Notes under the pieces: generated by a model
What the model saw: only the letters and a program-made list of their open reading frames with translations
Databases searched by the model: none
Told to the model about the DNA's origin: nothing
Assembly: GCA_000004985.1 (NCBI GenBank)
Contig: GG739330.1
From: Naegleria gruberi
Lineage: Eukaryota
Length of the DNA stretch: 1,760 nucleotides
Strand: one strand, 5' to 3'
In this document: positions 1-1,760 of the stretch, piece by piece
Layout: each line of letters begins with the position of its first letter
Numbering within the stretch: position 1 is the first letter of the stretch
Position numbers and translations under genes: made by a program

Positions 1-7
1 TGAAATT

Positions 8-1276
8 ATGAAAATATTTTCCAAGCATTATCAAAGTGAAATTGAAAAACAAGGCACCAGTTCATTTGTGGGAAGTGAATCCAAAACTTTCGAAACTGAT
101 GGAAGAACGTATGAGGAAGATAATAGTGACCTAGATGAAGAATACTATTCAGATTATTCTTATGATATTCCTCCCCATCAAAATGTTGTTGTGGAACAAT
201 GGAATACTAAAATTTACGATAATCTTGGAGTCACTGACTTTAGTGACGATGAATACGAGGAGGGATTAGATTTCAAGCAATTAGGCCACATTTTTAAAAA
301 CTTGGAAAATGAAGCAAATAATCCCCTCAAAAGAAAGAGATTTGATCCATTGACATTCGAAGATTATTCACAAAATTTCATTGAAAATAGATTGAAAAAT
401 ACGATTGCATCTTTTGAATCCAATACATGGGATTACGACCTCAAGCAGGAGTTTGAAGGAGAGTTGACAGAAAATATTCCAGCCATTAAAATTCTTGCAA
501 GAGAAGGTGTTAAAAAGAGAAAATTGGAAAATCAGTCAACTGAGCCATCTGAAAATGATTTGGCAGACAACGACATTTTAACAACCAGATATGATTCATG
601 TATTATGGAAAAGAAGCCTGTGAACCGAACAATAGATGAAGCTTCAAGTGATTACTTTCTTTATGATTCATTTCAATTGCCAAATGCCAAAATGTTACTT
701 CAACAAGCTGCTGAGAATTTCTCTTCACAACTTTTCAAATATTCTAATTCTTACGCTCAACTTTGCCGTGGAACGTGTGCAACAGAAGAGGGTGATTTAA
801 TTAGAACACGAAGTGTTTTATTTTCAACTTTATTATTTAGACATGAATTACAATGGATTAATTTGAATTTCAGAGCACAATTCGAATCTATTTTGCAAGA
901 ATATGTTGATACAACTCGATTACAGAACGAGGTCTTGGAATCAATTAATAGATTTGAGTATATTGAAACAAATGAAGATGAGGATGATGAATTTATTGAT
1001 AACATTTCTTCATGCTCATCTGACAGTATGGTTTCGAATGCTTGCCAACTTAAAATGATTCTGAAATCAAATGAGGAAACAATTTTCGCCGATAATACCT
1101 GCATCTCTTGCAAGACCCTTGCCGATTACAAAGAAATGAATCCTGAATTGATTTGCACAACTGGAGATGGTTTTCCAACCATTATAGAATCACACCAATC
1201 TTACGATTATGAAATTAAATTCACAGAGAGCAGAGAAGAAGCAATTCATTGGATGAATGGCAAGTTATTCAATTAA
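8..1276 (+). CDS. Hypothetical acidic, probably nuclear protein (422 aa). Has two basic NLS-like motifs, Asp/Glu/Tyr-rich tracts and a C-terminal Cys/His cluster. Family not recognised.
   Basis: Uninterrupted 1269-nt ORF in AT-rich DNA, where random frames close within about 60 nt. Yeast-like codon bias (AGA Arg, TTA/TTG Leu, GAA Glu). ATG at 8 has A at -3 (gaaATTatg). The frame stays open over the two codons upstream to the window edge, so the true start could lie further 5'. Stop TAA at 1274-1276. No in-frame CTG codons. Confidence 0.8.
   Translation: MKIFSKHYQSEIEKQGTSSFVGSESKTFETDGRTYEEDNSDLDEEYYSDYSYDIPPHQNVVVEQWNTKIYDNLGVTDFSDDEYEEGLDFKQLGHIFKNLENEANNPLKRKRFDPLTFEDYSQNFIENRLKNTIASFESNTWDYDLKQEFEGELTENIPAIKILAREGVKKRKLENQSTEPSENDLADNDILTTRYDSCIMEKKPVNRTIDEASSDYFLYDSFQLPNAKMLLQQAAENFSSQLFKYSNSYAQLCRGTCATEEGDLIRTRSVLFSTLLFRHELQWINLNFRAQFESILQEYVDTTRLQNEVLESINRFEYIETNEDEDDEFIDNISSCSSDSMVSNACQLKMILKSNEETIFADNTCISCKTLADYKEMNPELICTTGDGFPTIIESHQSYDYEIKFTESREEAIHWMNGKLFN
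329..340 (+). other. Basic cluster PLKRKRF, a monopartite NLS-like motif (aa 108-111)
   Basis: Codons aaa aga aag aga read in frame, preceded by Pro-Leu. Matches the K-K/R-x-K/R consensus. Confidence 0.5.
512..523 (+). other. Second basic cluster GVKKRKLEN, NLS-like (aa 169-172)
   Basis: Codons aaa aag aga aaa in frame. Together with the first motif this suggests nuclear targeting. Confidence 0.5.
971..991 (+). other. Acidic tract NEDEDDEF (aa 322-328)
   Basis: Run of gaa/gat/gag codons. The opposite strand reads as poly-Ser, which generates the spurious antisense ORF. Confidence 0.8.
1100..1195 (+). other. Cys/His cluster C365-x2-C368-x14-C383-x12-H396, possible small zinc-binding module
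   Basis: tgc at 1100-1102, 1109-1111 and 1154-1156, cac at 1193-1195, all in frame. Further Cys at aa 336/346 and His at aa 414. The spacing is compatible with a zinc ribbon or treble clef but matches no specific family. Confidence 0.3.
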
Positions 1277-1284
1277 GGACTTTA

Positions 1285-1760
1285 TTAATCTGCAAATCCA
1301 GAACCTCCATGGCTTGAGGAGCCACCTCCACCACCACCACCTCCTCCTCCAAAATCATTCGAAGTGGTATAATTGGTATCATTGAAAGAGGAATAATTAC
1401 CACCACTCCCATCACCACCATTTCCTCCACCACCTCCACCTTTTCTATTCCTCAAAACACAAAATAATATCAGACCTGTAAGGAGGAAAGTTCCACCAAT
1501 TACACTAAGGATAATGGCTGCATTGATGGCACTTTGGTCAATTAGGCATTTATCGTATTGGTTGGAATTGGTACGAAAGGTTACGGATGGGGTGTATTGA
1601 GAAATGAGATTTGATTTCTGATAGAAAATGGAATATTGTTGATTGGAATTGAGTGTGAGAATTCCATTGCTGTCAGGAGTTGGAGGATTTGAGAAATCAA
1701 TAGTGGAATCAAAGATGAATGTGGAATTTAGATTTAAAATCTTGTAATTATCCTTGTACT
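1285..1760 (-). CDS. 3'-terminal part of a type I single-pass membrane protein. Ser/Thr/Asn-rich ectodomain, one TM helix, RNRK, Gly-rich cytoplasmic tail. Partial: the N-terminus lies beyond 1760.
   Basis: Hand translation of the minus strand, codons phased with + positions 1288-1290, 1291-1293 and so on. There are 158 consecutive sense codons from 1758 down to 1288 with no stop, in AT-rich DNA. It ends with tandem stops TAA-TAA (+ strand tta at 1285-1287 and 1282-1284). Translation N->C: ...YKDNYKILNLNSTFIFDSTIDFSNPPTPDSNGILTLNSNQQYSIFYQKSNLISQYTPSVTFRTNSNQYDKCLIDQSAINAAIILSVIGGTFLLTGLILFCVLRNRKGGGGGGNGGDGSGGNYSSFNDTNYTTSNDFGGGGGGGGGGSSSHGGSGFAD*. No in-window Met, which explains its absence from the ORF track. 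Confidence 0.75.
   Translation of the reverse strand, partial: YKDNYKILNLNSTFIFDSTIDFSNPPTPDSNGILTLNSNQQYSIFYQKSNLISQYTPSVTFRTNSNQYDKCLIDQSAINAAIILSVIGGTFLLTGLILFCVLRNRKGGGGGGNGGDGSGGNYSSFNDTNYTTSNDFGGGGGGGGGGSSSHGGSGFAD
1321..1350 (-). repeat. Perfect trinucleotide microsatellite (CCN)10 on +, (GGN)10 on -, encoding Gly10 in the cytoplasmic tail
   Basis: + strand reads gcc acc tcc acc acc acc acc tcc tcc tcc. In the minus-gene frame every triplet is a Gly codon (GGC GGT GGA ...). Confidence 0.9.
1402..1440 (-). repeat. Second, imperfect Gly-codon tract (GGGGGGNGGDGSG) in the same tail
   Basis: + strand reads acc acc act ccc atc acc acc att tcc tcc acc acc tcc acc. It is C-rich low-complexity in the same frame as the Gly10 run. 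Confidence 0.8.
1453..1530 (-). other. Transmembrane helix-coding segment (AINAAIILSVIGGTFLLTGLILFCVL) of the minus-strand gene
   Basis: Twenty-six consecutive hydrophobic or small residues. Positive-inside RNRK follows immediately on the C-terminal side (1441-1452). The preceding domain is polar Ser/Thr/Asn-rich, consistent with type I topology. Small-xxx-small spacing (AxxxA, AxxxS, SxxxG) occurs within the helix. Confidence 0.7.

What the first reader, a model, noticed from the sequence alone, without database searches (positions are those of the whole stretch)
1274..1287. Convergent genes with stop codons only 8 bp apart, so the 3' ends must overlap
The + ORF stops at 1274-1276 (TAA). The minus ORF stops at 1285-1287, with a second tandem stop at 1282-1284. 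Only 1277-1284 lies between the first stop of each gene, and 1277-1281 if the second tandem stop is counted. Any 3' UTR and poly(A) site for each gene must therefore sit inside the other gene's coding sequence. The minus strand reads GAT TAA TAA AGT, placing an AATAAA-like element on its own stop codons. The + gene's downstream sequence runs straight into the C-rich Gly-codon tract, which has no AT-rich terminator character. This predicts antisense-overlapping transcripts and possible transcriptional interference or mutually exclusive expression. Alternatively the genome is unusually compact.
Basis: seen in the sequence. Interest (0 to 1): 0.5.

Follow-up and report, generated by a model that had tools for sequence, protein, structure and literature searches.

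The report
Tail-to-tail Naegleria genes, stop-codon poly(A) signal
Two real genes of the amoeba Naegleria gruberi face each other with stop codons only 8 bases apart, and one carries its AAUAAA poly(A) signal on its own stop codons, so their mRNA ends almost certainly overlap by a few dozen bases; this is a tight but ordinary case of a layout already described for this compact genome.

Summary
The + TAA is at 1274-1276, the minus TAA TAA at 1287-1282, and 8 nt lie between the first stops. The window is a whole 1760-bp scaffold of Naegleria gruberi.

- **+ ORF:** it is the annotated NAEGRDRAFT_54959, the 3' part of a longer gene.
- **Minus ORF:** it is unannotated on this scaffold. It is 100% identical to the C-terminal 157 aa of NAEGRDRAFT_73530, a 304-aa signal-peptide/TM/Gly-tail protein.
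- **Adjacency:** 73530 sits on a 290-kb scaffold and carries the locus tag next to NAEGRDRAFT_73529, a 98%-identical copy of the + gene. The pair is therefore real, not an assembly chimera.
- **Native stop:** paralogues end in the same ...SGFA[DN]-stop.

The minus "tandem stop" contains an exact AATAAA (1286-1281). Published direct RNA-seq shows that N. gruberi uses AAUAAA and has a median 3' UTR of 39 nt. In 11-13% of its genes AAUAAA overlaps the stop codon, and those genes have a median 3' UTR of 22 nt.

From these figures I predict minus cleavage at about 1261-1271, inside the last + codons. The + gene has no canonical signal downstream, so its mRNA must end inside the minus CDS. The overlap is inferred, not measured, and interference is untested. 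This is a new instance of a known kind, of low interest.

The parts
2..1276 (+). 3' part of the coding sequence of NAEGRDRAFT_54959 (XP_002668095.1, annotated from ATG 8). The frame is open from base 2 and continues upstream off the scaffold. It is an orphan 'predicted protein' with no Pfam domain in this part.
   Evidence: The 98%-identical copy P0002 (NAEGRDRAFT_73529) extends 458 aa upstream and reads ...DEIMKIFSKHY across window 2-30.
1274..1276 (+). TAA stop codon of the + gene. It is embedded in AATTAA (1271-1276), a one-mismatch variant of AATAAA.
1277..1284 (.). The whole spacer between the first stop codons, 8 nt (GGACTTTA on +). Its last 3 nt are the second minus-strand stop and its last 4 nt belong to the minus AATAAA.
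1282..1287 (-). Tandem stop codons TAA TAA of the minus gene (1287-1285 and 1284-1282).
   Evidence: The position is native because paralogues end with the same ...GGSGFA[DN] followed by a stop.
1281..1286 (-). Exact AATAAA hexamer overlapping the stop codons. It is a predicted 'dual-use' stop/poly(A) signal of the minus gene.
   Evidence: for the hexamer. PMC11529991 for AAUAAA being the N. gruberi signal and overlapping 11-13% of its stop codons. Use at this locus is inferred.
1261..1271 (-). Predicted cleavage/poly(A) zone of the minus mRNA, 15-20 nt from the hexamer (3' UTR of about 14-24 nt). It lies inside the last 2-5 codons plus stop of the + gene. A moderately U-rich stretch follows on the minus strand (T fraction 0.43 over 1262-1223).
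   Evidence: Inference (published distances; arithmetic and composition). Not measured.
1288..1758 (-). C-terminal 157 codons of a type I membrane protein, 100% identical to residues 148-304 of NAEGRDRAFT_73530 (XP_002671505.1). The segments are ectodomain 1531-1758, TM helix about 1453-1530, and RNRK plus Gly-rich cytoplasmic tail 1288-1452. The N-terminal 147 codons lie beyond the right end of the scaffold.
1284..1289 (+). ATTAAT, a one-mismatch variant of ATTAAA. Together with AATTAA at 1271-1276 it is the only A/U-rich hexamer available to the + gene near its stop. No canonical AATAAA or ATTAAA occurs on the + strand from 1220 to 1760.
   Evidence: Function is speculative.

Best explanation
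This is a genuine convergent (tail-to-tail) pair of protein-coding genes in the gene-dense nuclear genome of Naegleria gruberi. It sits on a short scaffold that duplicates, as an allelic or redundant copy, the NAEGRDRAFT_73529/73530 locus of a 290-kb scaffold.

The minus gene encodes a signal-peptide/TM/Gly-tail membrane protein. It ends in TAA TAA A, which creates an AAUAAA poly(A) signal on its own stop codons, a 'dual-use stop codon'. By the published distances, its mRNA should be cleaved about 15-20 nt further on, at about 1261-1271. That gives an ultrashort 3' UTR which is antisense to the last few codons of the + gene.

The + gene has only 8 nt before the minus stop and no canonical hexamer downstream. 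Its mRNA must therefore end inside the minus coding sequence. Most likely it uses a weak variant hexamer at or near its stop (AAUUAA 1271-1276 or AUUAAU 1284-1289) and is cleaved at about 1290-1315.

The mature mRNAs would then be complementary over roughly 20-55 nt. This is most simply a by-product of genome compaction plus ultrashort UTRs, not a dedicated regulatory device.

- **Shown:** the coordinates, the reality and orientation of both genes, the exact AATAAA, and the native position of the minus stop.
- **From the literature:** signal identity and distances in this species.
- **Inferred:** the actual cleavage sites, the expression of both genes, and the overlap.
For: - **Organism and + gene:** one search gives a 100% hit to N. 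gruberi XP_002668095.1 on a 1760-bp contig; one search gives the locus tags.
- **Minus gene:** one search gives 100% identity over all 157 aa to a 304-aa protein. One search identifies it as NAEGRDRAFT_73530 on the same 290,827-bp scaffold as NAEGRDRAFT_73529, with consecutive locus tags and UniProt accessions.
- **Coding signal:** 0 stops against 7-12 in the other frames, 1 of 5000 shuffles, third-position G of 5%.
- **Family:** members share the architecture and the C-terminal ...GGSGFA[DN]-stop.
- **Signal:** exact AATAAA at 1286-1281 over the stops, and no canonical hexamer on + after 1219.
- **Published N. gruberi direct RNA-seq (PMC11529991):** AAUAAA is the top signal, lies about 15-20 nt upstream of cleavage, the median 3' UTR is 39 nt, 11-13% of stop codons overlap AAUAAA, and those have a median 3' UTR of 22 nt.
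- **Arithmetic:** any 3' UTR of 15 nt or more on either side enters the other CDS.
- **Relatives:** environmental contigs also carry AATAAA or ATTAAA across stop codons.
- **Compactness:** 57.8% coding.
Against: - No transcript or 3'-end data for this locus were available, so expression of either gene and the real cleavage sites are unmeasured.
- Neither gene has the UGUA upstream element reported as enriched in N. gruberi; none was found within 1150-1420 on either strand.
- The + gene lacks any canonical signal, and its downstream sequence is U-poor (T fraction 0.125). Its 3' end could therefore lie much further into the minus gene than I propose.
- The annotated copy of the + gene on the large scaffold ends about 770 nt earlier (...KIL-QEKV). 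In that copy the annotated spacer is ordinary.
- The related family member in environmental contigs has a 134-bp spacer and an unrelated convergent neighbour. The tight arrangement is therefore not conserved in the family.
Confidence: 0.68

Rival explanations
1. The + mRNA has no usable poly(A) signal near its stop. It reads far into or through the minus gene, ending 120 to more than 480 nt downstream, for example after AAUAAU at 1392-1397 or beyond the scaffold. This would produce a long natural antisense transcript that could interfere with, or be processed together with, the membrane-protein mRNA. It is the reader's 'interference / mutually exclusive expression' scenario.
For: There is no AATAAA anywhere on the + strand of the window and no ATTAAA after 1219. 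The 40 nt downstream of a putative near-stop cleavage site are U-poor (T fraction 0.125), whereas U-rich downstream elements help define sites in N. gruberi. RNAi components are reported in Naegleria (PMC9928731).
Against: The median N. gruberi 3' UTR is only 39 nt. Absence of AATAAA over 484 nt is not significant; I estimate about 0.35 expected by chance. There are no expression data. Many eukaryotic genes use variant hexamers.
Confidence: 0.17
2. There is no functional overlap because the part of the + ORF next to the junction (about 510-1276) is not expressed coding sequence in the organism. On this view the gene really ends near window 509, as modelled for NAEGRDRAFT_73529, or this haplotype copy is a silent or pseudogenised allele. 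A normal spacer of about 770 nt would then exist.
For: The P0002 model ends ...KILQEKV where the window continues, and QEKV is the +1-shifted reading of window 498-509. The + protein has no homologues outside N. gruberi and no Pfam domain.
Against: The window frame stays open for 259 further codons in roughly 35% GC DNA. With a stop frequency of about 7% per codon, I estimate that probability at about 1e-8. The JGI annotation itself calls this ORF a gene on this scaffold. A simple 1-nt frameshift would not end at QEKV, because the shifted frame stays open for 23 more codons in the window. That points to a gap or a model artefact on the large scaffold rather than a real earlier stop.
Confidence: 0.12
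3. The juxtaposition is an assembly artefact: a chimeric small scaffold joining two unrelated gene ends.
For: It is a very short (1760-bp) unplaced scaffold of a draft assembly.
Against: The same two genes are on the same 290,827-bp scaffold and carry consecutive locus tags (73529, 73530) and consecutive UniProt accessions.
Confidence: 0.02
4. This is a prokaryote-style convergent gene pair sharing a bidirectional intrinsic terminator.
For: None beyond the short spacer.
Against: The sequence is from a eukaryote. There is no stable hairpin at the junction on either strand: z = -0.15 and +0.56 against shuffles.
Confidence: 0.01

Closest known systems
[quoted passage not shown]
   Same: The organism is the same (N. 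gruberi) and the hexamer is the same (AAUAAA). The configuration (UAAUAAA, the hexamer starting at the second base of the stop) falls within the window those authors used to define overlap, from 2 nt upstream to 5 nt downstream of the stop.
   Different: Use of this particular hexamer has not been measured. Here the resulting 3' UTR would lie partly inside a neighbouring gene's coding sequence, a consequence the paper does not discuss; its text has no hits for 'antisense', 'intergenic' or 'neighboring'.
Convergent gene pairs with overlapping mRNA 3' ends (tail-to-tail cis-natural antisense pairs), such as yeast 'mimRNA' duplexes (PMC6993858) and bidirectional termination zones in yeast (bioRxiv 10.1101/2022.11.02.514956)
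   Same: The orientation is convergent, and the inter-CDS distance is much shorter than the summed 3' UTR lengths, so complementary 3' ends are expected.
   Different: Yeast pairs that form duplexes have a median spacer of 155 bp, so the overlap lies within UTRs. Here the spacer is 8 nt, so each UTR must run into the partner's coding sequence. Duplex formation and any regulatory effect are untested here.
Overlapping transcription in compacted eukaryotic genomes: microsporidia and nucleomorphs (Williams et al. 2005 PNAS, known to me and cited in the reference lists of the papers)
   Same: Loss of intergenic space forces transcripts to end within neighbouring genes.
   Different: N. gruberi is only moderately compact (57.8% coding; I estimate about 1 kb of non-coding DNA per gene on average). 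This pair is a local extreme rather than the genome-wide rule.
DUF2207-type membrane proteins (Pfam PF09972 N-terminal domain, TM segment, Gly-rich C-terminus), considered as the family of the minus gene
   Same: The architecture matches: N-terminal beta-rich extracytoplasmic domain, TM helix and Gly-rich tail. There are weak hits to the PF09972 N-terminal domain in family members.
   Different: All hits are below Pfam's cut-off (best 24.1 against 24.4 bits, for the Lapot gusevi member; 13.8 bits for the N. gruberi paralogue; none for the protein itself).

Membership tests
Dual-use stop codon / poly(A) signal (N. gruberi class, PMC11529991) | The organism uses AAUAAA as its main poly(A) signal | tested here: met
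   The window is N. gruberi. Published direct RNA-seq shows AAUAAA as the top hexamer in this species.
Dual-use stop codon / poly(A) signal (N. gruberi class, PMC11529991) | The hexamer overlaps the stop codon (within 2 nt upstream to 5 nt downstream of it) | tested here: met
   Minus strand TAATAAA: stop at 1287-1285, AATAAA at 1286-1281.
Dual-use stop codon / poly(A) signal (N. gruberi class, PMC11529991) | The stop codon is the true end of the coding sequence | tested here: met
   There is 100% identity to the C-terminus of the annotated NAEGRDRAFT_73530. Paralogues and relatives end with the same ...SGFA[DN].
Dual-use stop codon / poly(A) signal (N. gruberi class, PMC11529991) | A mapped cleavage site gives an ultrashort 3' UTR (median 22 nt) | not testable with these tools
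   No transcript data could be reached. GEO GSE260731 would show it.
Convergent gene pair with overlapping 3' transcript ends (tail-to-tail cis-NAT) | Two real protein-coding genes on opposite strands, ends facing | tested here: met
Convergent gene pair with overlapping 3' transcript ends (tail-to-tail cis-NAT) | The inter-CDS distance is shorter than the sum of the 3' UTR lengths | tested here: met
   The spacer is 8 nt, against species medians of 22-39 nt per UTR. This uses species-level numbers, not this locus.
Convergent gene pair with overlapping 3' transcript ends (tail-to-tail cis-NAT) | Both genes are transcribed, in the same cells, with complementary 3' ends or an RNA duplex detected | not testable with these tools
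   No RNA data. No paper mentions either locus tag.
Convergent gene pair with overlapping 3' transcript ends (tail-to-tail cis-NAT) | The arrangement is conserved in related genomes (as for functional yeast pairs) | tested here: inconclusive
   Both genes are on the same second N. gruberi scaffold and carry consecutive locus tags. The + gene has no detectable relatives elsewhere. A family member of the minus gene in environmental contigs is convergent with an unrelated gene at 134 bp.
DUF2207 (PF09972) membrane proteins (minus gene) | The score to the PF09972 N-terminal domain is above the gathering threshold | tested here: not met
   P0003 has no hit, P0004 scores 13.8 bits and P0008 scores 24.1 bits, against a cut-off of 24.4.
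DUF2207 (PF09972) membrane proteins (minus gene) | Fold similarity of the ectodomain | tested here: inconclusive
   The AlphaFold2 model from a 4-sequence alignment has mean pLDDT 45.9. That is too poor for a fold search, so none was run.

The most novel reading that the evidence does not exclude
The 8-nt junction could be a shared, bidirectional 3'-end module. The minus gene would use its stop-embedded AAUAAA. The + gene, lacking any canonical signal, would either be cleaved at a weak variant or read antisense through the membrane-protein gene. The resulting complementary 3' ends, which include coding sequence of both genes, would form dsRNA in vivo and couple the expression of the two genes, either through RNAi (whose components Naegleria encodes) or through duplex-dependent protection. 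That would make this a coding-sequence-level sense/antisense switch rather than a passive result of compaction.
Probability: 0.08. Interest if true: 0.45.

Novelty: new member of a known kind. Interest (0 to 1): 0.17.

Why it matters
The locus is a clean, extreme example of what ultrashort 3' UTRs and stop-embedded poly(A) signals allow. Two eukaryotic genes are packed so closely that each mRNA must end inside the other's coding sequence.

It could serve as a test locus in three ways:
- to ask how the N. gruberi cleavage machinery chooses sites when no canonical signal is available, as for the + gene;
- to ask whether short coding-region antisense overlaps have any consequence;
- to flag an annotation inconsistency between two copies of the same locus in the N. 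gruberi draft assembly.

It does not change any current view. Both the signal type and overlapping convergent transcripts are already documented.

Tried and rejected
1. **Pfam scan of both window ORFs.** It gave nothing meaningful.
2. **Word-indexed protein search with the 157-aa minus fragment.** It found nothing, probably because poly-Gly words swamped the candidate list. The exhaustive HMMER search then found the exact match.
3. **Contig look-ups for P0001, P0002 and P0003.** None is on record. I could not obtain the 290-kb scaffold DNA, and the ...KIL-QEKV discrepancy stays open.
4. **Two metagenome scans, with the + protein and with the minus family.** Neither gave confirmed relatives.
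5. **Rfam and tRNA scans.** They gave only sub-threshold C/D-snoRNA-like hits inside the + CDS (27 bits against 60), treated as chance.
6. **RNA folding of the junction on both strands.** No structure exceeded shuffles, so I rejected a hairpin or terminator reading.
7. **Structure prediction of the minus protein.** Mean pLDDT was 45.9, so I ran no fold search.
8. **Literature search for the locus tags.** There were no hits. Searches for Naegleria-specific work on overlapping or convergent transcripts also found none.
9. **Conservation of the tight spacing in relatives of the minus gene.** The neighbour there is an unrelated repeat protein 134 bp away, so conservation of the arrangement is not supported.
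10. **The supplement of PMC11529991.** It is not held, so per-gene 3' UTR annotations could not be checked.
Full report
**1. Observation**

I read the whole window and rechecked the junction by script.
- The + frame ends ...AAG TTA TTC AAT TAA, with TAA at 1274-1276.
- The minus strand reads ...GGA TTT GCA GAT TAA TAA AGT CCT TAA TTG..., with TAA at 1287-1285 and a second in-frame TAA at 1284-1282.
- Eight bases (1277-1284) lie between the first stops, or five if the second stop is counted.
- The "AATAAA-like element" is an exact AATAAA at 1286-1281 on the minus strand.
- Downstream of the + stop the + strand is the antisense of GGN glycine codons. It is C-rich and T-poor, with a T fraction of 0.05-0.25 in 20-nt windows over 1287-1347.

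**2. What the sequence is**

The translated + ORF matches a Naegleria gruberi "predicted protein" at 100%. The contig that carries that protein is 1760 bp long, so the window is an entire small scaffold of the draft genome. The accessions are XP_002668095.1 / NAEGRDRAFT_54959.

A second N. gruberi protein, P0002 (NAEGRDRAFT_73529), is 625 aa long and lies on a 290,827-bp scaffold. It is identical at 159 of 163 residues to the first 163 residues of the annotated window protein, and it continues 458 aa further upstream. The window frame is open from base 2 and reads E-I-M-K-I-F, as P0002 does. The ATG at 8 is therefore an internal methionine, and the window holds only the 3' part of a longer gene. 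The upstream part of P0002 has sub-threshold ankyrin-repeat hits. The part in the window has no Pfam domain and no detectable relatives outside N. gruberi.

**3. Is the minus ORF a gene?**

- The frame is open for all 157 codons from 1758 to 1288 and runs off the right end.
- The other five frames of that region carry 7-12 stops each.
- Only 1 of 5000 shuffles of 1277-1760 reaches 157 open codons.
- Third-position G is 5%, in line with the A/T-ending codon preference of the + gene.
- It is the only frame that does not score clearly negative under the + gene's codon table.

A word-indexed search with the fragment found nothing. The exhaustive HMMER search then found a 304-aa protein that is 100% identical over all 157 residues, at its residues 148-304. 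This protein is NAEGRDRAFT_73530 / XP_002671505.1. It lies on the same 290,827-bp scaffold as NAEGRDRAFT_73529, with consecutive locus tags and consecutive UniProt accessions D2VWW6 and D2VWW7.

The two genes of the window are therefore on the same second assembled scaffold and carry adjacent locus tags. That rules out a chimeric scaffold and identifies the window as an allelic or redundant copy of that locus: 4 amino-acid differences in the + gene and none in the minus gene.

The protein has these parts:
- a signal peptide;
- a beta-rich ectodomain with N-glycosylation sequons;
- one TM helix, encoded at about 1453-1530;
- an RNRK stop-transfer motif;
- a Gly-rich tail, encoded at 1288-1452.

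Relatives share this architecture and end in the same ...GGGGGG-S-H-G-SGFA[D/N] followed by the stop. They are an N. gruberi paralogue (NAEGRDRAFT_67746, 43% identity), two environmental proteins and a Lapot gusevi transcript. The stop at 1287-1285 is therefore the native end of the coding sequence. Similarity to the DUF2207 N-terminal domain is only sub-threshold, so I do not file the protein there.

**4. How 3' ends are made in this organism**

A direct-RNA-sequencing study that included N. gruberi (PMC11529991) reports the following:
- AAUAAA is the top poly(A) hexamer.
[quoted passage not shown] - About 11-13% of stop codons overlap AAUAAA ("dual-use" stop codons).
- Those genes have a median 3' UTR of 22 nt.
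- UGUA upstream and U-rich sequence downstream are auxiliary elements.

The minus gene's TAATAAA fits this class exactly. The "tandem stop" is most simply the 3' half of the hexamer rather than a separate feature.

Applying the published distances puts the minus cleavage site at about 1261-1271. That is 6-16 nt inside the + gene counting its stop, or the last 2-5 codons. The 40 nt beyond that point are moderately U-rich on the minus strand (T fraction 0.43). No UGUA lies upstream.

**5. The + gene's 3' end**

The + strand has no AATAAA anywhere in the window, and its last ATTAAA (1214-1219) lies inside the CDS, 55 nt before the stop. Near the stop only variants exist:
- AATTAA at 1271-1276, over the stop itself;
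- ATTAAT at 1284-1289;
- AATAAT at 1392-1397.

The sequence downstream is U-poor (T fraction 0.125). Whichever site is used, any 3' UTR of 9 nt or more enters the minus gene's stop and coding sequence.
- With a UTR of 15-39 nt, the + mRNA would end at about 1291-1315 and the two mature mRNAs would be complementary over about 20-55 nt.
- If no nearby site works, the + transcript would run 120 to more than 480 nt antisense through the minus gene. I keep this as the main rival (about 0.17).

**6. Other readings tested**

- There is no RNA structure at the junction beyond shuffles on either strand (z = -0.15 and +0.56). There is no Rfam family above threshold and no tRNA.
It is partly echoed by the annotation of the other copy, because P0002 ends ...KIL-QEKV at the equivalent of window ~509. 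QEKV is the +1-shifted reading of window 498-509, but that shifted frame stays open for 23 more codons in the window. A simple frameshift therefore does not explain the model's end, and a gap or model artefact is more likely.
- The window frame itself stays open for 259 further codons, which I estimate at about 1e-8 by chance at a stop frequency of about 7% per codon.
- I could not obtain the large scaffold's DNA, so this remains open (rival, about 0.12).

**7. Conservation**

The + gene has no relatives to compare. A family member of the minus gene occurs on environmental contigs from three samples. It is also followed by a convergent gene, but that gene is an unrelated repeat protein 134 bp away. 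The tight spacing is therefore not a conserved property of the family.

In those contigs, stop codons again often carry the signal: CAA TAA A (AATAAA) at two called genes and GAT TAA A (ATTAAA) at the family member. This agrees with dual-use stops being common in this lineage.

**8. Comparison with what is known, and verdict**

Stop-embedded poly(A) signals are published for this very species. Convergent genes whose mRNA 3' ends overlap are well known in yeasts, where duplex-forming pairs have a median spacer of 155 bp (PMC6993858) and bidirectional termination zones have been described. They are also known in compacted genomes such as microsporidia and nucleomorphs (Williams et al. 2005, from my own knowledge; cited by the papers).

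N. gruberi is 57.8% coding with an average gene length of 1,677 bp (PMC9928731). That leaves roughly 1 kb of non-coding DNA per gene on average, by my estimate. An 8-nt spacer is therefore at the tight extreme for this genome, but the mechanism that permits it is documented.

What is slightly unusual here is that the overlap must include coding sequence of both genes, and that the + gene has no recognisable signal.

I rate this a new member of a known kind, with low interest (0.17). Interference or mutually exclusive expression is untested and not needed to explain the sequence.

Noticed in passing
window 494-509 (+), compared with P0002 residues 619-625: The annotated copy of the + gene on the 290-kb scaffold (NAEGRDRAFT_73529) ends ...KIL-QEKV. 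QEKV is the +1-shifted reading of window 498-509, while the window ORF continues for 259 codons. This points to a frameshift, a gap or a gene-model inconsistency between the two copies of the locus in the N. gruberi draft assembly.
   Followed up: partly
window 1-1760, both strands: AATAAA is absent from the + strand of the whole window, including the sense strand of the 1272-nt + CDS. It occurs four times on the minus strand (1286, 997, 834, 822). Apart from the one on the stop, both CDSs lack sense AATAAA, which fits the reported scarcity of this hexamer in N. gruberi coding sequences (about 1200 genome-wide, PMC11529991).
   Followed up: partly
window 1288-1758 (-); P0003, P0004, P0005, P0007, P0008: The minus gene belongs to a small uncharacterised eukaryotic family: signal peptide, beta-rich ectodomain, one TM helix and a Gly-rich tail ending in a conserved ...SGFA[DN]. 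Members occur in N. gruberi (two genes), environmental contigs and the rhizarian Lapot gusevi. Similarity to the mostly bacterial DUF2207 N-terminal domain is just below threshold (24.1 against 24.4 bits).
   Followed up: partly
L001 899-901, 1541-1543, 4219-4221; L004 3627-3629: In environmental contigs encoding relatives of the minus protein (GC about 0.39), several called genes have the poly(A) hexamer across the stop codon: CAA TAA A twice, GAT TAA A once and GAA TAA T once. This suggests dual-use stops are common in that organism too.
   Followed up: partly
L001 4356-6017 (-): The convergent neighbour of the family member P0005 is a long protein made of repeats of the type ...NDREVVLEAVKQNGCALKYAS... 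I recognised these as DUF4116-like from memory and did not scan them. It is unrelated to the window's + gene, and its stop lies 134 bp from the P0005 stop.
   Followed up: no
window 967-1073 (+): Three overlapping sub-threshold Rfam hits to C/D-box snoRNA families (best 27 bits against a gathering score of 60, E = 0.079) lie inside the acidic DEDDE-coding part of the + CDS. They are most likely chance.
   Followed up: no
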